Assembly: GCA_963708725.1 (NCBI GenBank)
Contig: CAVPTL010000008.1
Span: forward strand, 530,988-594,987
DNA from: an uncultured Actinomycetes bacterium
GTDB taxonomy: Bacteria; Actinomycetota; Thermoleophilia; Gaiellales; JAICJC01
Direction of reading: 5' to 3'
DNA length: 64,000 nucleotides
Every line of letters starts with the position of its first letter. The stretch's first letter is position 1. The notes below the pieces were generated by a model. That model saw only the letters and a list, made by a program, of their open reading frames with translations. It was not told the DNA's origin and did no database searches. The translations under genes were made by a program, and so were the position numbers. This document shows positions 24,812-35,937 of this stretch, in pieces.

Positions 24812-25519
24812 ATGGTCGTGTTGTTCCCCACCTGCCTGGGCGACGCCGTCTCGCCTGCAACGGTGCGTGACGCGACGGCGGTGCTGCGGGCTGCGGGAAT
24901 CGAGCCGGGCCGCCCGAACGGCGCGGCCTGCTGCGGACAGCCGGCCTGGAACAGTGGATTTACCAAAGACGCCCGGCGAGTGGCGCGAGCGACGCTGAAA
25001 GCCCTGGAGCATGCCGAGGCGGTGGTGGTGCCGGCCGGCTCCTGCGCGGCGATGATGCGCCTGCACTGGCCGGTGCTGTTCGAGGGCGCCGAGCGCCAAC
25101 GGGCCAAAGCGGTGGCGGGCCGCGTGTATGAGCTGTCGCAGTACCTCGTTGACGTGTTGGGGGTGACGTCAATCGGAGCTCCCAGCGAGCAGACGGTCGC
25201 ATACCACGACTCGTGCCACATGCTTCGCGAGCTGCGCATCCACGATCAGCCGCGCACGTTGCTTCGGTCGGTCGCCAATCTGGTTGAGCTTCCGCGCTCC
25301 GACCGCTGCTGTGGGTTCGGCGGGACGTTCAGCGTTCGCTATCCCGAGGTATCGACGGCAATGGCCGACGACAAGCTGGCTGCGGCTTCGACCGCCGGCA
25401 TCGACCTGATCGCAACCGCCGATCCCGGGTGTGCCCTACAGATCGGCGGACGGGCGTCGCGCACCCGCGCGCCCGTGCAGGTCGAGCATCTGGCCTCGGT
25501 GCTGGCGAGGGCGTTGTGA
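24812..25519 (+). CDS. lutA: L-lactate utilisation protein LutA ((Fe-S) oxidoreductase with CCG motifs)
   Basis: LFPTCLGD…CCGQPAWNSG…HDSCH…CCGFGG pattern, followed by lutB and lutC. Confidence 0.9.
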   Translation: MVVLFPTCLGDAVSPATVRDATAVLRAAGIEPGRPNGAACCGQPAWNSGFTKDARRVARATLKALEHAEAVVVPAGSCAAMMRLHWPVLFEGAERQRAKAVAGRVYELSQYLVDVLGVTSIGAPSEQTVAYHDSCHMLRELRIHDQPRTLLRSVANLVELPRSDRCCGFGGTFSVRYPEVSTAMADDKLAAASTAGIDLIATADPGCALQIGGRASRTRAPVQVEHLASVLARAL

Positions 25520-26835
25520 CCAGCTTCACCGAGCGCGCGCACGACCGGCTCGGCGACCACGACCGGCGGGCGGCCCTTGCCGTGATGACCGATCGCCAGT
25601 CGGACTCCCGGGTCGAGGCAACCGCCGAGATCGCCGACTTCGAAGCGCTGCGCGAGCGTGGTGCGGCGATTCGAACCGATGCGATTGAGCACCTCCCCCG
25701 GTACCTGGACGAGCTGGTCGCAAATGTCGAGCGAAACGGGGTGATCGTGCATCGCGCGGCGACCGCGGCCGAGGCGGTGTCGATTGTCAGTGAAATCACC
25801 GCTCAGCATGGCGGCGGACCGGTCGTCAAGGGAAAGTCGATGCTGTCCGAAGAGATCGGCCTGAACGAGCGGCTCGAGGCCGATGGCGTGGAGGTGTTCG
25901 AGACCGACCTGGGGGAGTTCATCCTGCAGCTCGCCGGCGAGGCCCCTGAGCACATCCTCGCACCCGCGATCCATTGGAGTCGAGAGCGGGTGCGAAAGCT
26001 GTTCGAGCCGCTCGCCGGGCGAACTCTGGGTGACGACCCCGAGGAGCTCGTCGGGTTCGCCCGCGGCCACCTGCGTGCCCGGTTCGAATCGGCCCGCGTC
26101 GGCATCACCGGCGTGAACTTCGGTGTGGCCGAGACCGGCACGGTCGTGGTTGTCTCCAATGAAGGCAACGGGCGGCTGTCGGCGGCGATGCCACCGGTGC
26201 ACATCGCGCTGATGGGAATTGAGCGGGTGGTGCCGAGGTTCGCCGACCTCGGCGTGCTTCTGCCACTGCTGGTGCGCTCGGCGACCGGGCAGCGGATGAG
26301 CTCCTACGTCTCGATGATCCAGGGCCCCCGCCGCGACGACGAGATCGACGGGCCCGAGGAGATGCACCTGGTACTCGTGGACAACGGCCGTTCGGGGGTA
26401 CGCGATTCGCGATACGCGAGCGTCCTTCGCTGCATCCGTTGCGGTGCGTGTCAAAACGTGTGTCCGGTGTATCGCCAGGTTGGTGGCAGCGCCTACGGGT
26501 GGGTGTACGGCGGTCCGATCGGCGCGGTCCTGACTCCGCTCTTTCGCGGGCAGCGTGAAGCCGGCGAGCTGAGCCAGGCCTCGTCGCTGTGTGCTGCCTG
26601 CGACGACGTCTGTCCCGTCAAGATCCCTCTGCACGACCTGCTGCTCGACCTTCGCCGCGATCGCGCGGCCGAGGTTGCCGGGCCGCTGGAGCGCCTCAGC
26701 TTCCGGCTGTGGAGCGAGGTCTGGAGCCGGCCGTGGGCCTACCGTGCGTCGATCCGGCTGGCGCCACTGGCTGCGCGGTTGCCGGGTCCGGGGCGCCGGT
26801 TCACTCGCACCCGAGATCTGAAGGTGCGGAGATGA
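25516..26835 (+). CDS. lutB: L-lactate utilisation protein LutB (4Fe-4S, LUD domain)
   Basis: CIRCGACQNVCPVY and CAACDDVCPV ferredoxin motifs. GTG 25516 overlaps the lutA stop (GTGA). Confidence 0.9.
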   Translation: MTSFTERAHDRLGDHDRRAALAVMTDRQSDSRVEATAEIADFEALRERGAAIRTDAIEHLPRYLDELVANVERNGVIVHRAATAAEAVSIVSEITAQHGGGPVVKGKSMLSEEIGLNERLEADGVEVFETDLGEFILQLAGEAPEHILAPAIHWSRERVRKLFEPLAGRTLGDDPEELVGFARGHLRARFESARVGITGVNFGVAETGTVVVVSNEGNGRLSAAMPPVHIALMGIERVVPRFADLGVLLPLLVRSATGQRMSSYVSMIQGPRRDDEIDGPEEMHLVLVDNGRSGVRDSRYASVLRCIRCGACQNVCPVYRQVGGSAYGWVYGGPIGAVLTPLFRGQREAGELSQASSLCAACDDVCPVKIPLHDLLLDLRRDRAAEVAGPLERLSFRLWSEVWSRPWAYRASIRLAPLAARLPGPGRRFTRTRDLKVRR

Positions 26836-27242
26836 TCGAGCGCTTCCGCGAGCGCCTGGAGGCCGCCGGCGGCGTGTTCTACCGAGGCCGCGAGGCCGCC
26901 ACCGACCTCGCCGGAGAGGGCGTGTCGCTGACCGGCACCCTGGTTGCAATCGCTGACACCGGCACCGTTGTCACCAGCTCTCGGCTGACCGGCGGGCGGC
27001 TGCCGGGCCTTGCCGATCCGGTGCATGTGGCCGTGGTCGAGGCAGCTGACGTGGTGGCGAATCTTCCGGAGGCGTTGGAGCGGATCGCGCCCGAGCTCGC
27101 GCGCGCGTCAGTTGTGACGCTGATTACCGGACCCAGCCGCAGTGCGGACATCGAAGGGATTCTGATTCGCGGTGCCCACGGGCCCCGTGAGCTGCACGTC
27201 GTCTGGGTCGACGGACCGCCCGGGGCGCCCCCGGCCGCCTGA
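26832..27242 (+). CDS. lutC: L-lactate utilisation protein LutC (LUD domain, short form)
   Basis: ATG 26832 overlaps the lutB stop (ATGA). …ADTGTVV…ITGPSRSADIEG… pattern. 136 aa. Confidence 0.8.
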   Translation: MIERFRERLEAAGGVFYRGREAATDLAGEGVSLTGTLVAIADTGTVVTSSRLTGGRLPGLADPVHVAVVEAADVVANLPEALERIAPELARASVVTLITGPSRSADIEGILIRGAHGPRELHVVWVDGPPGAPPAA

Positions 27243-27463: not shown

Positions 27464-28486
27464 GTGCAAGCTTTCAAAGTCGGGCTGTTCGCGGTCGTCC
27501 TGGGCACCATCGGATGGATAGCCGTGTACCTCACGCCCTCGTGGTTCCCGCCCCAGGCCTCGGTTCAAGCCGTCCGGCACGACCACATCTACTTCGCACT
27601 GATGATCATGGCGTCCTACATCTTCGCCATCGTCGTTTCGTTCCTGGGCTACTCGATGTGGGTGTTTCGGGCCAAGGACGGCGACATGTCCGACGGCGAG
27701 CCCATTCACGGCAACACAATGCTCGAGATCGTGTGGACGGTGATTCCGCTCGTGCTCGTGCTTGGCTTTGCCGTCTACGGGGCATTCGTGCTCTCCAAGA
27801 ACGAGAACACGTCGAACGCCCGGCTGCTGGTGAACGTCACGGGTGAGGAGTTCGAGTGGCGGTTCGATTACCCGACCCAGAAAGTGCACTCAGGGATTCT
27901 GGAGCTGCCGGTCAACCAGAAGGTCGTCTTCAAGGTTCATGGCCTCCCCAAGGACGTCATCCACGGGTTCTACATCCCGGCTTTCCGCGAGGGTATCGAC
28001 GCGGTTCCGGGCGAGGTGACGACGCTGGTAGCCACGCCCGACCGGGTCGGCTCCTACAACGTCATCTGCAACATGCTGTGCGGCATCGGCCATAGCCAGA
28101 TGCGCACGGTGGTCAATGTCGTTCCCCAGGAGAAGTTCGCCGCGTGGGTGCACACACAGCTGCATCCGCCAAAGCCCAAGCCGACGTCAGGGCCGATCGA
28201 TGCCAAGGCGCTGTTCACGACCAACTGCGCCTCGTGCCACACGCTGTCGGCTGCCGGCTCGACCGGGACGATCGGTCCAGACCTCGACAACGTGAGTTCC
28301 GATGCCACCAAGTACGGCAACGGCCAGTCGGCTGAGGACTACGTGAGAGAGTCGATCGTGGATCCGGATAAGGTAGTGGTGTCCGGCTTCCCATCCGGCA
28401 CGATGCCGCCGACCTTTGGAACATCGCTCAGCTCGCAGCAGATTGATGCACTCGTGGACTTCATCCTGAAAGGCAACAGCGGATGA
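27464..28486 (+). CDS. ctaC: cytochrome c oxidase subunit II with fused C-terminal cytochrome c (caa3 type)
   Basis: Two N-terminal TM helices, CuA ligands (VIHGFYIP … CNMLCGIGHSQM) and a heme-c site CASCH with a downstream SGTMP. Confidence 0.9.
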   Translation: MQAFKVGLFAVVLGTIGWIAVYLTPSWFPPQASVQAVRHDHIYFALMIMASYIFAIVVSFLGYSMWVFRAKDGDMSDGEPIHGNTMLEIVWTVIPLVLVLGFAVYGAFVLSKNENTSNARLLVNVTGEEFEWRFDYPTQKVHSGILELPVNQKVVFKVHGLPKDVIHGFYIPAFREGIDAVPGEVTTLVATPDRVGSYNVICNMLCGIGHSQMRTVVNVVPQEKFAAWVHTQLHPPKPKPTSGPIDAKALFTTNCASCHTLSAAGSTGTIGPDLDNVSSDATKYGNGQSAEDYVRESIVDPDKVVVSGFPSGTMPPTFGTSLSSQQIDALVDFILKGNSG

Positions 28487-30912
28487 CCGCACACGTTGAG
28501 GAACTTCCGGGGCAGAGCCATGGGCATGACCACGGCCACGGTCACAGCGGCCCCAAGAAGTCGATCTGGTTGCGCGGGAGCTGGGTGCGCGCCGCCTGGG
28601 TGTCCACGCTTGGCGCGCTGATCGGGCGCTTCGGCGTGATGGCGATCCGCAGCTGGCTGTTCGGGTACCCCGCCCAGGACTCCGGCGTCGAGGACACCTT
28701 CATGATGCTGTTCGGCGGCGTCGGGTTCCTGATCGGCATCGGCTGCTTCGATTACTGGTACGGCTACCTCGTCGGCAAGCACGATTGGGTCGAAGAGGAT
28801 CACTCGGCGCACGGCGCCTACACCTGGAAGGACTACTTCAAGGTCAATACCGACCACAAGGTGATCGGTATCCAGTACCTGTGTACGACCTTCATCTTCT
28901 TCATGATCGGCGGCGCGCTGGCCGAGGGAGTCCGCGCCGAACTCGCGACGCCGGGTACCCAGTACTTCTCGCCGGGCACCTACAACGGCCTGTTCTCGGT
29001 ACACGCGGCGCTGATGATCTTCCTGTTCATCATCCCCGCCTTCGCCGGTCTCGCCAACGTGGTCATCCCGCTCATGCTGGGCGCGCAGGACATGGCCTTC
29101 CCGCGGCTCAACGCGCTGTCGTTCTGGATGCTCCCGATCGCCGGCGTGTGCATGTGCTCGTCGTTCCTGGTGGGTGCGTTCGACGCCGGCTGGACGAACT
29201 ATCCGTCGCTCGCGGTGCACGGCCCTGCGGGCCAGACGTTCTGGGTGATGGGTGTGCAGTTCGCCGGCGCGTCGTCGATCGCGACGGCCGTCAACTTCCT
29301 GGTCACCATCGTGACGATGCGCGCCCCAGGGATGACGTTCTGGCGGATGCCGCTGCTGGTGTGGGCGAACCTGGCGACGTCGACCCTGGTTGTGTTGGGC
29401 ACGCCGTTCATCGCCGGTGCCCAGTTCATGGTGCTGTTCGACCGGTTGTTCCCGACGCACTTCTTTGATCCAGCCGCCGGCGGCAACTTAATTATGTACC
29501 AGCACATATTCTGGTTCTACTCGCACCCAGCGGTGTACATCATGATGCTGCCCGGGTTCGGGATCATTTCCGAGGTGATCGCGACTCATTCGCGCAAACC
29601 GATCTTCGGCTACCGCCTGATCGCCCTCTCGACGGTCGCGATCGGTGTGCTCGGATTTACCGTGTGGGCGCACCACATGTTCATCGCGGGCATGGCTCCG
29701 TGGCTGCGCGTGCCCATGATGTTCACGACGATGCTGATCGCGGTCCCGACCGGCATCAAGATGTTCTCGTGGCTTGCGACCATGTGGAAGGGCGTGATCC
29801 ATCTCACGACGGCCATGCTGTTTGCCTGTGGCTTCCTGTTCACGTTTGCGATCGGCGGCCTCTCCGGCGTCTTCCTGGCCGTGCTGCCGGTCGACATCAA
29901 CGTCTCGAGCTCCTACTTCGTGGTCGCCCATATCCACTACGTGCTGTTCGGCGGCTCGGTGTTCACGATCTATGCGGGCATCTACCACTGGTATCCGAAG
30001 ATGACCGGCCGGATGTACGACGAGACGCTCGGAAAGCTGCACTTCTGGATCACGTTCTTTGCGTTCAACTTCACGTTCATGCCGATGCACTGGCTGGGTC
30101 TGGAGGAGATGCCGCGGCGCGTTGAGGACTACGACCCGAGGTTCGGCACCGTCAACTTCTTCATCTCGGTGTGGGCGTTCGTCCTGGGTGCCTCGACGCT
30201 GATCTTCCTCTACAACATGATCCACTCGTGGGCCAAGGGCAAACGCGCGCCCGCCAACCCGTGGCGGTCGCTCACCCTGGAGTGGCAGGTGACCTCGCCA
30301 CCGCCGATCTTCAACTTCGACGAGCCGCCGCAGGTCGTGGGCAGCCCGTATGCCTACGGCATCCCCGGGGCGCGCCACGCCATCGTGACCGTGCACACGC
30401 CGGAACCGGTCGCACGCCCCATGCCGGCGGTGCTTGCCACCGCTACGCCCGCTCAAAGGGAGGCGATCATGTCGACGCTCAAACACATACTGGTGGTCGC
30501 GAACCAGACGGTCGCGAGCGAACCGCTGATCGCCGCGGTGCGGGCGCGGGCCCAGGCCGAACCGAGCCGTGTGACCGTGATCTGCCCGCAGAACGACCCG
30601 AGCGACAGTTGGGTGGTGGACGAGGAGGATGTGGCTGCCGAGACGCGCCGTCGCCTCGACGCGACGCTGGCTGCACTCTCCAACGCGGGGGTGCAGGCCG
30701 AGGGTCACGTGGTCGCGGCCGACCCGTACACCGCGGTGCTGGACGTGGTGGAGTCCGACGACCCGCCCGCCGAGATCATCGTCTCGACACTGCCTCGCAC
30801 TCGCTCAGGCTGGATGCGGCGCGACCTGATCGAGCGACTGCGTGATCGCGTCGACGTGCCGGTCTCTCATGTCGAGGCCGATATGCGTACCGATCCGGCG
30901 GAGAGCCGTTGA
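28483..30912 (+). CDS. ctaD: cytochrome c oxidase subunit I (A2 type), with a ~115-aa N-terminal extension and a 147-aa C-terminal USP-like domain
   Basis: The core runs from …TDHKVIGIQYL… through …WFYSHPAVYIMMLPGFG… and HHMF to …SPPPIFNF. The same frame continues without a stop into MSTLKHILVVANQT… (from 30469). Confidence 0.9.
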   Translation: MTAHVEELPGQSHGHDHGHGHSGPKKSIWLRGSWVRAAWVSTLGALIGRFGVMAIRSWLFGYPAQDSGVEDTFMMLFGGVGFLIGIGCFDYWYGYLVGKHDWVEEDHSAHGAYTWKDYFKVNTDHKVIGIQYLCTTFIFFMIGGALAEGVRAELATPGTQYFSPGTYNGLFSVHAALMIFLFIIPAFAGLANVVIPLMLGAQDMAFPRLNALSFWMLPIAGVCMCSSFLVGAFDAGWTNYPSLAVHGPAGQTFWVMGVQFAGASSIATAVNFLVTIVTMRAPGMTFWRMPLLVWANLATSTLVVLGTPFIAGAQFMVLFDRLFPTHFFDPAAGGNLIMYQHIFWFYSHPAVYIMMLPGFGIISEVIATHSRKPIFGYRLIALSTVAIGVLGFTVWAHHMFIAGMAPWLRVPMMFTTMLIAVPTGIKMFSWLATMWKGVIHLTTAMLFACGFLFTFAIGGLSGVFLAVLPVDINVSSSYFVVAHIHYVLFGGSVFTIYAGIYHWYPKMTGRMYDETLGKLHFWITFFAFNFTFMPMHWLGLEEMPRRVEDYDPRFGTVNFFISVWAFVLGASTLIFLYNMIHSWAKGKRAPANPWRSLTLEWQVTSPPPIFNFDEPPQVVGSPYAYGIPGARHAIVTVHTPEPVARPMPAVLATATPAQREAIMSTLKHILVVANQTVASEPLIAAVRARAQAEPSRVTVICPQNDPSDSWVVDEEDVAAETRRRLDATLAALSNAGVQAEGHVVAADPYTAVLDVVESDDPPAEIIVSTLPRTRSGWMRRDLIERLRDRVDVPVSHVEADMRTDPAESR

Positions 30913-31520
30913 GCGCCCACAGCGTTCCGATCGACGGTCCAGCCCTGCCCGATGCAGCCGCTGAGCAGCCTCACGAGAGCCTTCTGACCAACCGCGTCTA
31001 CCTCGGGATGGTCATGTTCCTGGGGTCGGAGGCCATGCTCTTCGGGTCGTTCTTCACGGCCTTCTTCTTCCTTCGCTTCACAAGCTCCAGCTGGCCGACG
31101 GACGGGCTCACCCTCCCGGTCGAAGCGACCGGGATCAACACCGCGATCCTGATCAGCTCGTCGTTCACGATGCATTGGGCGCTGGTCTCGATCCGCCGCA
31201 ACAGCCGGTTTGGGTTGGTACTTGGCCTGGGCCTGACGCTGCTGATGGGAGTGACCTTCCTCGCGCTCCAGATCCACGAGTACCTCACGCTCGGATTCTC
31301 GCCCTCGACCAATGCATTCAGCGGCGCGTTCTTCGCGCTGACCGGTCTGCACGGATTCCACGTGCTGATCGGCGCGACGCTCTTGACAATCGCCTTCACG
31401 CGCGCATCGCGCGGACACTACTCCCCGGAATCCCACCTCGGCCTCGAAGTGACCGGCCTCTACTGGCACTTCGTCGACGTCGTCTGGATTCTCCTCTACA
31501 CAGTCGTCTACCTCTTGTAG
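30909..31520 (+). CDS. ctaE: cytochrome c oxidase subunit III
   Basis: …FLGSEAMLFGSFF…LTGLHGFHVLIG…YWHFVDVVWILLY… is typical of subunit III. The TTG start overlaps the ctaD stop. Confidence 0.9.
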   Translation: MSAHSVPIDGPALPDAAAEQPHESLLTNRVYLGMVMFLGSEAMLFGSFFTAFFFLRFTSSSWPTDGLTLPVEATGINTAILISSSFTMHWALVSIRRNSRFGLVLGLGLTLLMGVTFLALQIHEYLTLGFSPSTNAFSGAFFALTGLHGFHVLIGATLLTIAFTRASRGHYSPESHLGLEVTGLYWHFVDVVWILLYTVVYLL

Positions 31521-31680: not shown

Positions 31681-31902
31681 CTAGTCGGGGAGGTTGCGGT
31701 ATTCCTCGAGGGAGTCGCGCACCCAGACGAAGATGGCGCCGATTGTGATCATGGCGCCGATCGAGACGAGTGCCAGACGGTAGATGCGCGCGTCGGGCAC
31801 GAACCCGAACAGCAGCAGTGCGATCCCAAAGCCGGTCACAATCGGGACTCCCGACGGCGACGGCAGGTGGAACGGGTTTTGGTCGTGGTCTTCGTCAGCC
31901 AT
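31681..31902 (-). CDS. small two-TM membrane protein, probable accessory oxidase subunit (N-terminus resembles the start of subunit III)
   Basis: MADEDHDQNPFHLPSPSGVPIVTGFG… The H-x-P-x-PS-x-x-P pattern resembles subunit III helix 1. It starts 2 nt after the preceding small ORF. 73 aa. Confidence 0.6.
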   Translation of the reverse strand: MADEDHDQNPFHLPSPSGVPIVTGFGIALLLFGFVPDARIYRLALVSIGAMITIGAIFVWVRDSLEEYRNLPD

Positions 31903-31904
31903 GA

Positions 31905-32021
31905 TCAGTAGTGGATCGTGATCTCGCCGACCACGAAGGTCGCGGCCAGGATCAGGAGCGAGGCGAGTGACAGCCACAGCGCGAGGCGGATGTTCTTGTT
32001 GGCGGTTCGCTTATCGAGCAT
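31905..32021 (-). CDS. 38-aa single-TM protein (not in the ORF track), probable small oxidase subunit
   Basis: MLDKRTANKNIRLALWLSLASLLILAATFVVGEITIHY. The ATG lies 1 nt after the coxI stop (TGAgATG). Nearly every codon ends in G or C. Confidence 0.55.
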   Translation of the reverse strand: MLDKRTANKNIRLALWLSLASLLILAATFVVGEITIHY

Positions 32022-32022
32022 C

Positions 32023-33684
32023 TCAGGCTTTCGATTCTATCGCCGCTGCGTCCGCGGCCTGCCGCTGTCGCAGGTCGTACAGCGGGCGCTCGCTGCGGAT
32101 CGGGGGCAGGTCGTCGAAGTTGTGGGCCGGCGGCGGGGAGGTCGTGTACCACTCGAGGCTGTTGCCGCCCCACGGATCGTTCGGGGCGATCCGGCCGTAG
32201 CGCAGCGAGCTGATGCAGTTCCACAGCACCATCATCACGCCGACGGCCAGCAGCAGCGCGCCGATGGTGGCCAGTTGGTTGTAGATCTGCCAGCTGTGCT
32301 CGGTGTACGTCGACACCCGTCGGCGCATGCCCGAGAGACCCGCGGCGTGCATCGGGAAGAACGTCAGGTTGAAGGCGATGAACAGCACCCAGAAGCTGCG
32401 AACAGCGAGCTTGCGATCGAGCATCCGGCCCGTGATCTTCGGATACCAGAAGTGCACCCCCGCCATCACCGCGAACACCGGAACCGTGCCCAGCACGTAG
32501 TGGAAGTGGGCCACCACGAAATACGTATCGGTGGTGTACTGGTCGATCGGGTAGACGGCCAGCATGATCCCCGAAAGCCCGCCGATGATGAACAGCCCGA
32601 TGAAGCCGACCGCGAACAGCATTGGTGGCTCGAATCGCAGCCGGCCCATCCACATCGTGCCGATCCAGTTGAAGATCTTGACCCCGGTGGGGATCGCGAT
32701 CAGGAGCGACGTGAACATGAACCAGATCTGCAGCGGCTCCGAGAACCCGACGGCGAACATGTGGTGGCCCCAGACCAGGAAGCCGAGGAACGCGATCGCC
32801 GCGGTGGAGTACACGAGTGCGCGATACCCGAACAGCGGCTTGCGCGAGAACACCGGCAGGATCTCGGAGATCATTCCGAACCCGGGCAGGGCCATCACGT
32901 ACACCACCGGGTGTGAGTAGAACCAGAACAGGTGCTGATACAGCAGCACGTTGCCGGAGTGCGCCGGGTTGTAGAAGTTCGTGCCGTAGTTGCGGTCGAG
33001 CAGCAACATCGTGAGGGCTCCCGCCAGCACCGGCCCGGCGGCCACGATCATGATCGAGTAGATCTCGATCGTCCACGTGAACAGTGGCATCCGCGACAGC
33101 CGCATTCCGGGAGCGCGCATGTTGTGGATGGTGCACAGGAAGTTGATCGCCCCGATCAGCGATGAGATCCCGATCACATGCAGGCCCACGATCCACAAGT
33201 CCTGGCCATGGCCGGGCGAGAGCACCGACAGCGGTGGGTAGCTCGTCCAGCCGGAGTCGGCCGGCCCGCCGCCCCAGACGAACCCGGAGTACAGGATGAT
33301 GCCCCCGAACAGGAGCAGCCAGAACGACAGCGCGTTGAGGCGCGGGAACGCCATGTCGCGGGCGCCGATCTGGAGCGGCACGAGGTAGTTGCCGAACGCC
33401 GCCATCACGGGCACCACGAACAGGAAGATCATGGTCGTGCCGTGCATGGTCATGATCTGGTCGTAGGCCTCCGACGAGATCAGCGTGTTGTTGGTGTGCT
33501 CGAGCTGGAGCCGGATCACCAACGCGAAGATGCCGCCGATCAGGAAGAACACGAAGGTCGTGACCAGGTAGAGGATCCCGATGCGCTTGTGGTCGACGGT
33601 CGTGATCCAGGACATGAACCCGCCGCCGTCGGCTTCGGGAAGCTGGGCCACGGTGGGCGTAGGAGCTGCTTCGGTGGTAGCCAC
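32023..33684 (-). CDS. cytochrome c oxidase subunit I (second copy, A2 type)
   Basis: …TVDHKRIGILYL…WFYSHPVVYVMALPGFG…HHMF…SPPPAHNF. The GTG start overlaps the TAG of subunit II (TAGTG). 553 aa. Confidence 0.9.
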   Translation of the reverse strand: MATTEAAPTPTVAQLPEADGGGFMSWITTVDHKRIGILYLVTTFVFFLIGGIFALVIRLQLEHTNNTLISSEAYDQIMTMHGTTMIFLFVVPVMAAFGNYLVPLQIGARDMAFPRLNALSFWLLLFGGIILYSGFVWGGGPADSGWTSYPPLSVLSPGHGQDLWIVGLHVIGISSLIGAINFLCTIHNMRAPGMRLSRMPLFTWTIEIYSIMIVAAGPVLAGALTMLLLDRNYGTNFYNPAHSGNVLLYQHLFWFYSHPVVYVMALPGFGMISEILPVFSRKPLFGYRALVYSTAAIAFLGFLVWGHHMFAVGFSEPLQIWFMFTSLLIAIPTGVKIFNWIGTMWMGRLRFEPPMLFAVGFIGLFIIGGLSGIMLAVYPIDQYTTDTYFVVAHFHYVLGTVPVFAVMAGVHFWYPKITGRMLDRKLAVRSFWVLFIAFNLTFFPMHAAGLSGMRRRVSTYTEHSWQIYNQLATIGALLLAVGVMMVLWNCISSLRYGRIAPNDPWGGNSLEWYTTSPPPAHNFDDLPPIRSERPLYDLRQRQAADAAAIESKA

Positions 33685-34409
33685 TAGGTCAGCGAGTCCC
33701 GGTATTTGGCGTTCCAGGTGGCGAGCGGAACGACGTGGACGGTGATCGTCATCGAGGCGTGGCCGATGCCGCAGAACTCTGCGCAGGCCCCGACAAACGT
33801 GCCCACCTGACTGGGCGTGAACCCGACGTAGTTGGTGCGGCCGGGCAACGCGTCGATCTTCGGGGCGAGCGAGGGCACCCACCAGTCGTGGTCGACGTCC
33901 TTCGACGTCACCGACAGCTTCACCGGCCGACCCACCGGGATGACCAAAATCCCGCCCGGCGCGATCTTGCCCGACGGGTAGGTGTAGGTGAACGAGAACT
34001 GCTGAGCTGTGACGTTGACGTCCATCGCGTGTGACGAGATCTTCTCAGCACTCGGGATCTTCACGAGCGTGAACACGAGGATGCCGATCACGATCAGCGC
34101 CGGCACCACCGTCCAGCCAATCTCGAGCCGCGTCGAACCGTGGGTCTGGGGCGGCTCGTGGGTGTCGCCACGGCGTTCGCGGAACCGCACCGCGGTGTAC
34201 AGCAGCCAGCCGCCCACGAGCACGAAGATCGTGAGACAGATCCCGAGCAGGCCGAAGTAGAGGCTTTTTATCGAGTCCGCATTCCCGCTATCGGGAGTGT
34301 TTGGCGTCGCCGTGTCGGCAAATGCAGGCGCGGCCGCGACCAGGAGTACCAGTAGCGCGAGCGCCGCTGCGGCGGCCCAAAGGCGGGGTCGACGATGAAA
34401 CACAGTCAC
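33684..34409 (-). CDS. cytochrome c oxidase subunit II (second copy, no fused cytochrome c)
   Basis: Signal peptide (…AAPAFA/DT), two TM helices and CuA ligands (DVDHDWWVP … CAEFCGIGHASM). Confidence 0.9.
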   Translation of the reverse strand: MTVFHRRPRLWAAAAALALLVLLVAAAPAFADTATPNTPDSGNADSIKSLYFGLLGICLTIFVLVGGWLLYTAVRFRERRGDTHEPPQTHGSTRLEIGWTVVPALIVIGILVFTLVKIPSAEKISSHAMDVNVTAQQFSFTYTYPSGKIAPGGILVIPVGRPVKLSVTSKDVDHDWWVPSLAPKIDALPGRTNYVGFTPSQVGTFVGACAEFCGIGHASMTITVHVVPLATWNAKYRDSLT

Positions 34410-34459
34410 AGGCGGGCGGATTGTACAGCGCCCCAGCGGTCGTTGGCTGCGGGGTCAGC

Positions 34460-35473
34460 TCACGAAGGCTGATCTTCGGGCGGCGTGACCTCGTCGGTGG
34501 GCGTCCTGCGGGGCGGAGGCGCGGCCGGTTTAGGTGCTTTGGGAGGGGAATTTTCGGCGGCTCCGGTCGCGAAGGCCGCGCCCATGCTGGCGACGGCGGC
34601 CATCGCATCCGACGCGCCGGAGGGCACCACGATCAGCTTGTTGGCATCGCCGGCGGCGACCGCGGGCAAGGCCTCGAGGTACTTGTAGCCGAGCACGTTG
34701 GCCGGGTCGGCGCCCGAGGTTTTGATCATCTCGAAGATCTGCCGCAGCGCTTCGGCTTCGCCCTGTGCGCGCAGCGCGCGCGCCTGGCGGTCGCCCTCGG
34801 CTCGCAGCACGTTGGCCTGCTGCTCGCCCTGGGCGTTGAGGATCGCGGCCTGCTGCAACCCCTCCGCGCGGAGGATCGCCGACTGCTTCTCGCCCTCGGC
34901 CTGGAGCACGGTGGCGCGCTTGGCCCGGTCGGCACGCATCTGCTGCTCCATCGCCTCTTGGATCGACCGCGGCGGGTCGATCGACTTGAGTTCGACGCGA
35001 GTCACCCGCACGCCCCACTTCTCGGTCGCCTCGTCGAGCACGACCCGCAGCTGGGTGTTGATCTGGTCGCGACTGGTCAGGGTGCCCTCGAGCGTCATCG
35101 CCCCGACCACGTTTCGCAGGGTCGTGATCGTCAGTTGCTCCATCGCCAGCAGCATGTTTGCGACGCCGTACACGGCCGCGGTGGGATCGGTCACCTGGTA
35201 GTAGACGATCGTGTCGACCCCGATGGTCACGTTGTCCTGGGTGATCACGGGCGTCGGTGGGAACGGCTGCACCGTCTCCTTCATGTCGACCACCATTCGC
35301 TGGCGGTCGAGGAACGGCACCAGGATGTGCACTCCCGGCTGAAGCGTGCGCTGATAGCGGCCCAGCCGCTCGACGATGCCGACGTAGCTCTGGCGGACGA
35401 CCTTCACCGACGAGGCGATACCGACCAGGACGACCAGAGCCACCAGTGCCGCGAGGATGGTGAGAATAATCAT
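34460..35473 (-). CDS. SPFH/band-7 (stomatin/HflK-C-like) membrane protein
   Basis: N-terminal TM helix, an SPFH core (…VKVVRQSYVGIVERLGRYQRTLQPGVHILVPFLD…) and an A/E/Q-rich coiled-coil tail. Confidence 0.9.
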   Translation of the reverse strand: MIILTILAALVALVVLVGIASSVKVVRQSYVGIVERLGRYQRTLQPGVHILVPFLDRQRMVVDMKETVQPFPPTPVITQDNVTIGVDTIVYYQVTDPTAAVYGVANMLLAMEQLTITTLRNVVGAMTLEGTLTSRDQINTQLRVVLDEATEKWGVRVTRVELKSIDPPRSIQEAMEQQMRADRAKRATVLQAEGEKQSAILRAEGLQQAAILNAQGEQQANVLRAEGDRQARALRAQGEAEALRQIFEMIKTSGADPANVLGYKYLEALPAVAAGDANKLIVVPSGASDAMAAVASMGAAFATGAAENSPPKAPKPAAPPPRRTPTDEVTPPEDQPS

Positions 35474-35937
35474 GGGAGTGCTCCTTCGATTTGATCGTCC
35501 GAACCGTGCACCGGCAGCACCAGCGCCGTGACGCCCTTGATCTCGACCACTTCGATCCGGGTTCCGACAGCGAGCTGCTCGCCGTCGAAGAAGCTGCGCG
35601 CGCTCCAGATGTCACCGTCGACCCGCACCTGTCCGGGCTCCAGCTCGGCGATCGCCTTGGTGACGACGCCCTTGCGCCCGCGCATCGCCTCCACCCCGGT
35701 GCGGAGCTGTGGCCCCGAGGTCGCCGCGCGCTGGAGCGCTGGGCGGGTCAGCCATAGGCCGGCGACGGCCGCAATCGCGAATGCCGCGATCTGGAGCACC
35801 AGTGGGCCTCCAACCAGACCGACGATGGCCGCGACGATTGCAGCAATACCGAAGTACACGGCCACGAATGCGGTGGTCGTGGCCTCAACGATCAGCAGCG
35901 CCACAGCGATGATGACCCAGATCACCCAGGTGTCCAT
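35470..35937 (-). CDS. NfeD-family membrane protein (partner of the SPFH protein)
   Basis: Three or four TM helices plus a C-terminal OB-like domain (…GRKGVVTKAIAELEPGQVRVDGDIWSARS…). ATGA overlap with the SPFH gene. Confidence 0.85.
   Translation of the reverse strand: MDTWVIWVIIAVALLIVEATTTAFVAVYFGIAAIVAAIVGLVGGPLVLQIAAFAIAAVAGLWLTRPALQRAATSGPQLRTGVEAMRGRKGVVTKAIAELEPGQVRVDGDIWSARSFFDGEQLAVGTRIEVVEIKGVTALVLPVHGSDDQIEGALP

What the first reader, a model, noticed from the sequence alone, without database searches (positions are those of the whole stretch)
30456..30912. USP-like domain fused in frame to cytochrome oxidase subunit I, yet preceded by its own Shine-Dalgarno and ATG
The subunit I core ends about 50 aa after the usual SPPPxxNF region. 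The frame then continues without a stop into MSTLKHILVVANQTVASEPLIAAVRARAQAEPSRVTVICPQ…EIIVSTLPRTRSGWMRRDLIERLRDRVDVPVSHV (147 aa, 30469-30909). This pattern resembles small stand-alone universal-stress-protein/adenine-nucleotide-alpha-hydrolase-like proteins of actinobacteria.

Immediately upstream of this Met is AAAGGGAGG (30455-30463) with a 5-nt spacer, an ideal ribosome-binding site. The locus could therefore yield both a subunit I-USP fusion and a free USP-like protein from internal initiation. It could also be a recent stop-codon loss between two genes. I have not seen a nucleotide-binding-fold domain attached to the catalytic subunit of an A-type oxidase described.
Basis: partly seen in the sequence, partly recalled or inferred. 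Interest (0 to 1): 0.6.

Follow-up and report, generated by a model that had tools for sequence, protein, structure and literature searches.

The report
Oxidase subunit I with USP-like tail
The catalytic subunit of a respiratory oxidase in this soil actinobacterium (order Gaiellales) ends in a small stress-protein-like domain that related bacteria encode as a separate gene in the same operon, and a conserved internal ribosome-binding site suggests the cell also makes that domain on its own.

Summary
One 809-codon ORF (28483-30912, +) encodes a complete A-type oxidase subunit I and then runs without a stop into a 147-residue tail (30469-30909). AAAGGGAGG, a 5-nt spacer and an ATG precede the tail.

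- **Fold:** the tail has a universal-stress-protein (USP) fold. Its closest solved relative is the uncharacterised Thermus protein TT0030 (2IEL). The canonical USP ATP-binding motif is absent.
- **Not an artefact, not recent:** 54 distinct fused sequences from independent metagenomes and 15-16 GTDB species genomes (Gaiellales) carry the same fusion. Their synonymous sites are saturated.
- **Sister lineages:** in other Thermoleophilia the homologue is a separate two-domain gene of about 275 aa, wedged between ctaD and ctaE and translationally coupled to ctaD. A third form, about 920 aa, has both domains fused.
- **Operon link:** the gene was fused to ctaD or immediately downstream of it in 73 of 73 informative genome loci. 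I read it as an oxidase-dedicated cytoplasmic accessory module.
- **Internal start:** the site appears to be under nucleotide-level selection. The Arg codon in the Shine-Dalgarno (SD) motif is AGR in 22 of 24 sequences, against 0-1 of 23-26 at 22 other conserved Arg columns. When Met is replaced, the codon is usually TTG.

No short product has been shown, and the ligand and function are unknown. I found no literature on this.

The parts
27464..28486 (+). ctaC: oxidase subunit II with a C-terminal cytochrome c domain (caa3-type). Its stop overlaps the ctaD start.
   Evidence: Pfam COX2_TM, COX2 and Cytochrom_C; ORF list.
28483..30912 (+). ctaD-USP fusion ORF, 809 aa.
   Evidence: Pfam COX1 E 1.3e-149 at residues 128-566. 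TIGR02891 scores 671.4 against a cut-off of 670.75. Orthologues of 795-820 aa at 71-95% identity.
28483..28845 (+). N-terminal extension of subunit I (residues 1-121): His-rich start and two extra predicted membrane helices.
   Evidence: AF2 helices at residues 34-60 and 67-86. Conserved GIGCFDYW and EDHSxHGA motifs. Not covered by any solved oxidase.
28846..30357 (+). Subunit I catalytic core (residues 122-625) with invariant His and Tyr ligands and the A2-type Y-S-H-P motif.
   Evidence: Matches to solved CtaD chains cover residues 121-625. Invariant H174, H348, Y352, H397, H398, H483, H485.
30403..30468 (+). Pro/Ala-rich variable linker (residues 641-662). Most of it, up to residue 651, is predicted disordered.
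   Evidence: AF2 pLDDT below 50 for residues 633-651. Variable sequence and length among orthologues.
30455..30463 (+). Shine-Dalgarno-like AAAGGGAGG inside the ORF (codons CAA AGG GAG G).
   Evidence: The Arg codon is AGR in 22/24 orthologues, against 0-1/23-26 at 22 other conserved Arg columns. It is the only AGGGAGG-N4-7-ATG in the window.
30469..30471 (+). Internal in-frame ATG (Met663), 5 nt after the SD-like motif.
   Evidence: Across 54 distinct orthologues the site is ATG 36, TTG 14, CTG 3, CTC 1. It is the only alignment column with at least 3 TTG codons.
30469..30909 (+). USP-fold domain of the TT0030-like subfamily (residues 663-809); cytoplasmic by the known topology of subunit I.
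   Evidence: AF2 pLDDT 82.5 with a five-strand/four-helix alternating beta-alpha pattern. Foldseek 2IEL E 1.2e-6, then USPs. phmmer 2IEL E 8e-8. 4879 homologues.
30909..31520 (+). ctaE: oxidase subunit III (203 aa). Its TTG start overlaps the ctaD-USP stop.
   Evidence: Pfam COX3 E 1.3e-39; sequence.

Best explanation
**Shown**
- This is a caa3-type (A2) cytochrome c oxidase operon, ctaC-ctaD-ctaE.
- The last 147 codons of ctaD encode a divergent universal-stress-protein-fold domain.
- In sister lineages of the class Thermoleophilia the same domain family is encoded as a separate two-domain gene. That gene sits between ctaD and ctaE, and its start overlaps the ctaD stop.
- In this Gaiellales lineage the stop is gone. 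One domain, more like the N-terminal half of the tandem protein, is joined to the C-terminus of subunit I by a Pro/Ala-rich linker of about 22 residues that is mostly predicted disordered.

**Inferred, with high confidence**
- The domain is an oxidase-dedicated accessory module on the cytoplasmic face of the enzyme.
- The fusion is old and is maintained by selection.

**Inferred, about 60% likely**
- The ancestral ribosome-binding site and start codon are kept because they still work. The ORF would then yield both the 809-aa tethered form and a free 147-aa form.

**Speculative, about 30% likely**
- USP domains act as dimers, and the ancestral tandem protein can pair with itself. The free copy may therefore pair with the tethered copy.
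- The module may sense a cytoplasmic ligand, not through the canonical ATP motif, to tune or stabilise the oxidase.
For: **Continuity and domains**
- ORF continuity.
- COX1 and COX3 assignments.

**Fold**
- AF2 model with pLDDT 82.5.
- Foldseek against the PDB gives 2IEL first, then MJ0577, TeaD, the KdpD USP domain and others, all at probability 1.00.
- The family profile hits 2IEL at E 1.3e-10.

**Fusion conserved**
- About 25 protein clusters of 795-820 aa at 71-95% identity.
- 54 distinct fused DNA sequences from JGI metagenomes and GTDB genomes.
- Third-position identity at four-fold sites is only 0.52-0.59.

**Split form in relatives**
- ctaD of about 648 aa, then a gene of 274-283 aa, then ctaE.
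- ATGA, GTGA or TTGA overlaps, or an in-frame TAG followed by a restart.
- The gene is fused to ctaD or adjacent to it in 73/73 informative GTDB loci, and ctaE follows in 79/80.
- The tail scores higher against the N-terminal half of the tandem protein in 14 of 15 comparisons.

**Internal start**
- AGR at the SD Arg codon in 22/24 sequences, against 0-1/23-26 elsewhere.
- TTG where Met is replaced: 14 of 18 Leu codons at the site, against a 1.8% background.
- The SD and the start codon are lost together in the two most divergent lineages, L044 and L045.
- There is a local dip in GC content and in predicted RNA structure at the site.
- Single-domain fusions have a Met before the domain in 24/25 cases. 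Two-domain fusions have one in 0/28.

**Family residues kept**
- All family-invariant residues are retained in the fused tail.
Against: - No expression data of any kind exist. The short product is inferred only from sequence conservation.
- The 54 sequences are phylogenetically related. They represent roughly a dozen clades, so the counts overstate the number of independent events. The TTG state, for example, is essentially one clade.
- A generic sliding-window test of synonymous diversity did not single out the site.
- The Glu-Ala codons (GAG GCN) give part of the GGAGG core for free if those residues are constrained at the protein level.
- Pfam Usp is below threshold for this tail, and the ATP-binding glycine motif is absent. 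A nucleotide ligand is therefore not supported.
- The full-length AF2 model gives no usable information on docking, because the linker has pLDDT below 50.
- Thermus homologues of TT0030 are not linked to oxidase genes, so the oxidase role is specific to this clade.
Confidence: 0.7

Rival explanations
1. Only the fused protein is made. The SD-like motif and the Met are a relic of the ancestral separate gene, or are kept for protein-level reasons because they lie at the N-terminal boundary of the domain. There is no functional internal initiation.
For: - The fusion clearly derives from a translationally coupled gene pair whose SD lay in the ctaD 3' end.
- GAG-GCN for Glu-Ala yields much of the motif automatically.
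- The synonymous-diversity scan did not flag the region.
- Two-domain fusions function without any internal Met.
- Two fused lineages have lost both the SD and the ATG.
Against: - Synonymous sites are saturated (0.52-0.59), yet the rare AGR codon persists only at this Arg column, and TTG occurs only at this column.
- The equivalent N-terminal residues are variable in the stand-alone proteins, so a protein-level constraint on R-E-A-I-M is not expected.
Confidence: 0.3
2. The fusion is an assembly or sequencing artefact, or a very recent stop-codon loss, and the true state is two genes.
For: - More distant relatives do have two genes.
- Some database entries look like stand-alone tails (P0001, P0012, P0018).
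Against: - 54 distinct fused sequences come from many independent short-read assemblies and 15-16 species genomes.
- The apparent stand-alone calls lie on frameshifted long-read contigs where COX1 itself is broken, or at a contig edge.
- Divergence within the fused clade is saturated at synonymous sites.
Confidence: 0.02
3. The purine-rich motif is kept as an internal SD-like pause site. It would slow ribosomes after the last membrane helix so that subunit I can insert or take up cofactors before the soluble tail is made. It would not act as a start site.
For: - The motif lies in the linker, just after the membrane core and just before the soluble domain.
- The nucleotide-level conservation is equally compatible with any function based on anti-SD pairing.
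Against: - A start-capable codon (ATG or TTG) at the optimal 5-nt spacing is conserved together with the motif and is lost together with it.
- From my own knowledge, the generality of SD-induced pausing has been disputed in later ribosome-profiling work.
- GGAGG is otherwise depleted in this window.
Confidence: 0.08

Closest known systems
TT0030 of Thermus thermophilus (PDB 2IEL), an uncharacterised structural-genomics protein
   Same: It is the closest solved relative by sequence (E 8e-8 with the single sequence, 1.3e-10 with the profile) and by fold (TM 0.69-0.75). It shares the motifs LVVA-x-x-T, S-T-L-P-x3-S-x-W-[LM]-R and P-V-x-H-V.
   Different: It is a stand-alone single-domain protein of 138 aa. 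Its orthologues in Thermus are not next to oxidase genes. No function or ligand is known.
Universal stress proteins of the ATP-binding class (MJ0577 1MJH, UspFG type; Pfam PF00582)
   Same: Same alpha/beta fold. Some family members pass the Pfam Usp threshold (P0101, 29.9 bits). The invariant residues lie in the same loops after beta1, beta2 and beta4 that form the nucleotide pocket in USPs; this mapping is read from the secondary structure and is an inference.
   Different: The window's tail is below the Pfam threshold (19 against 24 bits). The G-x2-G-x9-G-[ST] ATP motif is absent.
USP modules attached to membrane machines: TeaD of the TeaABC TRAP transporter operon (3HGM) and the USP domain of the KdpD sensor kinase that binds c-di-AMP (7JI4)
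   Same: A USP-fold module is encoded in the operon of a membrane complex, or fused to it, and acts (TeaD, KdpD) as a cytoplasmic ligand-binding regulator. Both are among the structural matches. KdpD binding of c-di-AMP is described in PMC4686210 (listed).
   Different: Here the partner is the catalytic subunit of a heme-copper oxidase. No ligand or regulatory effect is known. TeaD carries the canonical ATP motif.
Subunit I+III fusion of the Thermus thermophilus caa3 oxidase (PDB 2YEV)
   Same: It is an A2-type caa3 oxidase whose subunit I is extended at the C-terminus by fusion with the product of the next gene in the operon. It matches the core at E 1.2e-128.
   Different: The fused partner there is the membrane subunit III. 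Here it is a soluble USP-fold domain, and subunit III remains a separate gene.
Bacterial genes with in-frame internal translation starts that give two isoforms (infB IF2-alpha/beta, clpB 93/79 kDa, cheA long/short); from my own knowledge
   Same: An SD and a start codon inside an ORF, in frame, would yield a full-length protein and a C-terminal fragment.
   Different: In those cases the short products have been shown experimentally. Here the short product is only inferred from codon conservation.

Membership tests
Universal stress protein superfamily (USP fold, adenine-nucleotide alpha-hydrolase-like) | Alpha/beta fold with a five-stranded parallel sheet in beta-alpha-beta order. | tested here: met
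   AF2 gives E5-11, H18-30, E33-40, H52-72, E77-82, H86-94, E102-107, H118-127, E132-136, with pLDDT 82.5. Forty-one Foldseek PDB matches have E <= 1e-3, and nearly all are USPs.
Universal stress protein superfamily (USP fold, adenine-nucleotide alpha-hydrolase-like) | Score above the Pfam PF00582 gathering threshold (24 bits). | tested here: not met
   The tail alone scores 19.0 bits and scores 14.8 bits within the full protein. The relative P0101 passes with 29.9 bits, while P0073 scores 14.3 and P0017 gets no hit. No NCBIfam model matches.
ATP-binding USP class (MJ0577 / UspFG type) | G-x2-G-x9-G-[ST] motif after beta4. | tested here: not met
   The equivalent segment is I-I-V-S-T-L-P-R-T-R-S-G-W-M-R-R-D-L. 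Across the family it is S-T-x-P-x3-S-G-W-x-R-R. The motif definition comes from my own knowledge of the USP literature.
TT0030-like subfamily (PDB 2IEL) | Significant sequence similarity over the whole domain, and shared motifs. | tested here: met
   phmmer E 8.1e-8 over residues 7-137. Profile E 1.3e-10. Best Foldseek match.
A-type heme-copper oxidase subunit I (CtaD), A2 subtype | COX1 domain above the curated cut-offs, with six His ligands and the cross-linked Tyr. | tested here: met
   PF00115 scores 499 bits. TIGR02891 scores 671.4 against 670.75. H174, H348, Y352, H397, H398, H483 and H485 are invariant in 72 sequences.
A-type heme-copper oxidase subunit I (CtaD), A2 subtype | Y-S motif (F-Y-S-H-P) in helix VI in place of the D-channel glutamate. 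| tested here: met
   WFYSHPAVY at residues 344-352, invariant across the alignment. The A1/A2 criterion comes from my own knowledge of the oxidase classification.
Genes with a functional in-frame internal translation start | SD at 4-9 nt from a start codon inside the ORF, conserved at the nucleotide level. | tested here: met
   AGGGAGG, 5 nt, then ATG. AGR in 22/24 at the SD Arg column against 0-1/23-26 at other Arg columns, and the only TTG-rich column in the alignment.
Genes with a functional in-frame internal translation start | The shorter protein product is detected. | not testable with these tools
   No proteomic or ribosome-profiling data are available. The apparent stand-alone database entries are artefacts of frameshifts or contig edges.
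Oxidase accessory subunit (operon-encoded component of the cta complex) | Consistent genomic linkage with the ctaD and ctaE genes. | tested here: met
   Fused to ctaD (17) or immediately downstream of it (56) in 73/73 loci with upstream sequence. ctaE follows in 79/80.
Oxidase accessory subunit (operon-encoded component of the cta complex) | Physical presence in the purified enzyme. | not testable with these tools
   No solved oxidase structure contains such a domain. Matches to solved CtaD chains end at about residue 625.

The most novel reading that the evidence does not exclude
Thermoleophilia oxidases may carry a previously unrecognised cytoplasmic sensor subunit. This would be a USP-fold module with a non-canonical ligand pocket that adjusts or stabilises the proton-pumping oxidase according to the cell's metabolic state, a bacterial counterpart of nucleotide control of mitochondrial cytochrome oxidase by its supernumerary subunits. 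In Gaiellales a single ORF would be programmed to make both a tethered and a free copy of the module, which then pair on the enzyme.
Probability: 0.25. Interest if true: 0.75.

Novelty: new variant of a known kind. Interest (0 to 1): 0.52.

Why it matters
Bacterial A-type oxidases are generally treated as three or four membrane subunits with no cytoplasmic regulatory part. This analysis finds a soluble, conserved domain that is either fused to the catalytic subunit or encoded inside the cta operon. The 80 genomes inspected are nearly all from the class Thermoleophilia, an abundant group of soil bacteria.

This gives a concrete candidate for post-translational control or stabilisation of respiration in these organisms. 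It also offers a natural three-state series for comparative biochemistry: a split gene, a one-domain fusion and a two-domain fusion. The conserved in-frame start is a clean, testable case of one gene encoding both a membrane-tethered and a free form of the same domain. The practical limits are that most of these organisms are uncultured and that nothing is known about the ligand.

Tried and rejected
1. **Stand-alone tail entries.** Database entries such as P0001, P0012 and P0018 looked like evidence for two genes. They lie on long-read contigs with frameshifted COX1 or begin 12 nt from a contig end, so I rejected them.
2. **Chance within the window.** The SD+ATG motif is not significant on its own, with 0.37 expected. 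I relied on comparative data instead.
3. **Synonymous-diversity scan.** A 9-codon sliding window over 27 orthologues did not single out the internal start; the minima lie at KPIFGYRLI and PPIFNFDEP. The scan counts AGA and AGG as different codons, so it cannot see retention of purines. I replaced it with column-wise rare-codon counts.
4. **RNA folding.** The site is less structured than its flanks but is not the least structured stretch within +/-360 nt. This is only weak support.
5. **Full-length AF2 model.** The linker is of low confidence and no contact information is returned, so docking of the tail could not be judged.
6. **Other resources.** Pfam and NCBIfam have no dedicated family.
7. 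**Thermus context.** The genomic context of the Thermus TT0030 homologue shows no link to oxidase genes, and neither does a more distant single-domain homologue.
8. **Literature.** Four full-text searches found nothing on USP-oxidase fusions or on 2IEL.
9. **Membrane-anchored paralogue.** A motif search for a membrane-anchored USP-like gene downstream of ctaE found it in only 3 of 63 split loci, so it is not a general part of the system.
Full report
**1. What is in the sequence**

One search lists one ORF at 28483..30912 on the + strand, 809 aa long. One search shows the junction. AAAGGGAGG lies at 30455-30463, the spacer CGATC at 30464-30468, and ATG at 30469, which is Met663. The frame is open from the SPPPIFNF motif (residues 605-612) to the stop at 30910-30912.

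The ORF sits in a compact operon.
- ctaC (27464-28486) encodes subunit II with a fused cytochrome c domain.
- ctaD-tail starts with an ATG that overlaps the ctaC stop.
- ctaE (30909-31520) starts with a TTG that overlaps the ctaD stop.

Pfam COX1 covers residues 128-566 at E 1.3e-149. TIGR02891 just passes its cut-off. The His and Tyr metal ligands are invariant in an alignment of 72 relatives. The F-Y-S-H-P motif marks an A2-type enzyme; that criterion is from my own knowledge. The oxidase part looks fully functional.

**2. What the tail is**

Pfam Usp matches the tail only below threshold, at 19 bits against a cut-off of 24. NCBIfam has nothing.

A search of the 5.8-billion-protein collection found 4879 homologues. 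Most are proteins of about 270-285 aa that contain the domain twice. An all-against-all HMMER pass over 50%-identity representatives found 2022 clusters at E <= 1e-3 and 484 at E <= 1e-10.

An AF2 model built on 36 homologues has pLDDT 82.5 and an alternating beta-alpha pattern of five strands and four helices. Foldseek against the PDB returns the uncharacterised Thermus protein TT0030 (2IEL) first, with E 1.2e-6 and TM 0.69-0.75. A long list of bona fide USPs follows, including MJ0577, YnaF, TeaD, the KdpD USP domain and the cAMP-binding MSMEG_3811, all at probability 1.00. 2IEL is also the only significant sequence match among solved structures.

The fold assignment is therefore sound. The ATP motif of the MJ0577 class, G-x2-G-x9-G-[ST], is missing. 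The family has instead an invariant S-T-x-P-x3-S-G-W-x-R-R, together with the conserved segments L-V-V-A-N-x-T-V, C-P-Q-N, D-P-D-P-Y and P-V-x-H-V. These conserved segments fall in the loops after beta1, beta2, beta3 and beta4. In USPs that is where nucleotides bind, so a pocket for some ligand is plausible. Its identity is open.

**3. The fusion is real, old and clade-wide**

The full-length search found about 25 protein clusters of 795-820 aa, at 71-95% identity, that cover the whole query. They are named Gaiellales where a name exists.

A scan of JGI metagenome contigs gave about 40 loci with an open frame from FNFDE into the domain. A scan of one genome per GTDB species gave 15-16 more, all MAGs labelled Gaiellales, Thermoleophilia or uncultured Actinomycetes. 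Together these make 54 distinct fused sequences.

Between the window and 25 non-redundant orthologues, identity at four-fold third positions is only 0.52-0.59. That is saturation for a GC-rich genome. The protein keeps every family-invariant residue. A sequencing artefact or a recent stop-codon loss is excluded.

The few database entries that look like free tails do not count against this. They lie on long-read contigs where COX1 itself is broken into pieces, or they start 12 nt from a contig end.

**4. Relatives show where the tail came from**

Three architectures appear in the Thermoleophilia.

| Form | ctaD length | USP-like domains | Where found |
|---|---|---|---|
| Split | about 642-652 aa | two, in a separate gene of 274-283 aa between ctaD and ctaE | Thermoleophilaceae, Solirubrobacterales, Gaiellaceae, Conexibacter, one Acidimicrobiia bin |
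| Two-domain fusion | about 905-947 aa | two, fused | Thermoleophilia and Solirubrobacterales |
| One-domain fusion | 795-820 aa | one, fused | Gaiellales, including this window |

In the split form the start of the USP-like gene overlaps the ctaD stop as ATGA, GTGA or TTGA. In L057 and L058 it follows an in-frame TAG by 9-18 nt.

Of the 80 best GTDB loci, 17 are fused to ctaD, 56 lie immediately downstream of ctaD and 7 are cut by a contig end. ctaE follows in 79 of the 80.

The window's tail scores higher against the N-terminal half of the tandem proteins in 14 of 15 comparisons. TT0030-type homologues in Thermus are not next to oxidase genes, so the oxidase link is a feature of the Thermoleophilia branch of the family.

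This is a classic Rosetta-stone pattern. The domain is best read as a dedicated accessory component of this oxidase. The C-terminus of subunit I is cytoplasmic in all solved A-type oxidases (established knowledge), so the tail is cytoplasmic.

**5. Is the internal start used?**

In this window alone the motif is not beyond chance. The comparative evidence is stronger.

- **SD Arg codon.** In 26 non-redundant fused genes there are 23 columns with conserved Arg. Twenty-two of them use CGN almost exclusively, with AGR in 0-1 of 23-26 sequences. The Arg inside the SD-like motif is AGA or AGG in 22 of 24.
- **All distinct sequences.** Over the 54 distinct sequences the site reads AGA 23, AGG 22, AAG (Lys) 4, CGG 4 and CGA 1. 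The background AGR share is 7%. CGG-GAG-G still spells GGGAGG.
- **Start position.** The start codon site is ATG 36, TTG 14, CTG 3 and CTC 1. TTG makes up 1.8% of Leu codons overall, and this is the only alignment column with three or more TTG codons.
- **Joint loss.** The two most divergent fused lineages, L044 and L045, have lost the SD-like motif and the start codon together.
- **Local context.** The site lies in a local trough of GC content (0.57-0.63 against 0.75-0.80) and of predicted RNA structure. It is a better consensus ribosome-binding site than those of ctaC, ctaD and ctaE.
- **Contrast between fusion types.** A Met lies just before the domain in 24 of 25 single-domain fusions and in 0 of 28 two-domain fusions.

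Several caveats apply. The sequences are related and form about a dozen clades, so the counts overstate independence. Glu-Ala codons supply part of the motif for free. A generic synonymous-diversity scan did not flag the region. No product has been observed. I put the probability that the short product is made and matters at about 0.6.

**6. Mechanism proposed**

Shown: the oxidase subunit I carries a USP-fold domain, tethered by a linker and conserved under purifying selection. The same module is an operon-encoded separate protein in sister lineages.

Inferred: the module belongs to the oxidase complex on its cytoplasmic side.

Speculative: USP domains normally function as dimers, and the ancestral tandem protein can form an internal pseudo-dimer. 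The two-domain fusion shows no internal start, whereas the one-domain fusion keeps one. This pattern fits a model in which the tethered domain pairs with a free copy translated from Met663. Alternatively, two tails might pair two oxidase monomers.

What the module senses or does is unknown. Options include ligand-dependent tuning, as with TeaD or KdpD-USP, and stabilisation under stress. The missing ATP motif argues against simple ATP binding.

**7. Comparison with what is known, and novelty**

- No solved oxidase has sequence beyond about residue 625 of this protein, or before about residue 107.
- Thermus caa3 fuses subunit I to subunit III, so C-terminal fusion with the next gene of the operon has a precedent. 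The partner here is different.
- USP modules attached to membrane transporters and sensors are known.
- In-frame internal starts are known (IF2, ClpB, CheA; from my own knowledge).
- Four full-text searches found no description of a USP-type component of a heme-copper oxidase, nor any paper on 2IEL.
- Public annotations call these proteins simply 'cytochrome c oxidase subunit I', and the split gene 'hypothetical protein'.

I rate this a new variant of known kinds. It is real and widespread in one class, of moderate interest, and with function unproven.

Noticed in passing
window 28483-28845 (+), residues 1-121 of ctaD: Subunit I has an N-terminal extension of about 120 aa. It has a His-rich start (HGHDHGHGH), two extra confidently predicted membrane helices (residues 34-60 and 67-86) and conserved GIGCFDYW and EDHSxHGA motifs. 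It is present in the split, one-domain and two-domain forms alike, and no solved oxidase covers it. It might be a fused small subunit or a metal-handling segment.
   Followed up: partly
window 31681-35937 (-): A second A-type oxidase cluster lies convergent to the first. It comprises ctaC2 (34409..33684), ctaD2 (33882..32023, also with Y-S-H-P) and a 97-aa membrane ORF (31977..31681). NfeD (35937..35470) and an SPFH/Band-7 gene (35473..34460) precede it. The same arrangement is seen in relatives L001 and L002.
   Followed up: partly
L004 8378-9019; L007 7445-8011; proteins P0406, P0410, P0423: Some split-type operons carry a third USP-like gene right after ctaE. It has an N-terminal membrane hairpin (MRNPLRSEAEAF...) followed by the same domain family. 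The L007 copy looks degenerate. A motif search found it in only 3 of 63 split GTDB loci.
   Followed up: partly
proteins P0152, P0180, P0224 and others (about 905-947 aa); locus L109: A separate class of ctaD has two USP-like domains fused, a shorter linker (43-44 aa after FNF[DE]) and never a Met before the first domain. It is probably an independent fusion event.
   Followed up: partly
whole window: GGAGG is markedly depleted on both strands, with 128 observed against 196 +/- 14 in dinucleotide-preserving shuffles. This is consistent with general avoidance of SD-like sequences in an organism that uses SD-dependent initiation.
   Followed up: no
L001, L002; proteins P0157, P0158: Long-read metagenome contigs of close relatives carry many frameshifts in the cta genes. 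These produce spurious 'stand-alone' tails and run-on ctaD-USP-ctaE products of 1092-1231 aa. Database gene calls from those assemblies need caution.
   Followed up: yes
window 25429-27242 (+): LutB-like (LUD domain plus 4Fe-4S) and LutC-like (LUD domain) lactate-utilisation genes lie directly upstream of the oxidase operon. A LUD-domain gene also lies upstream of the cluster in relative L002.
   Followed up: no
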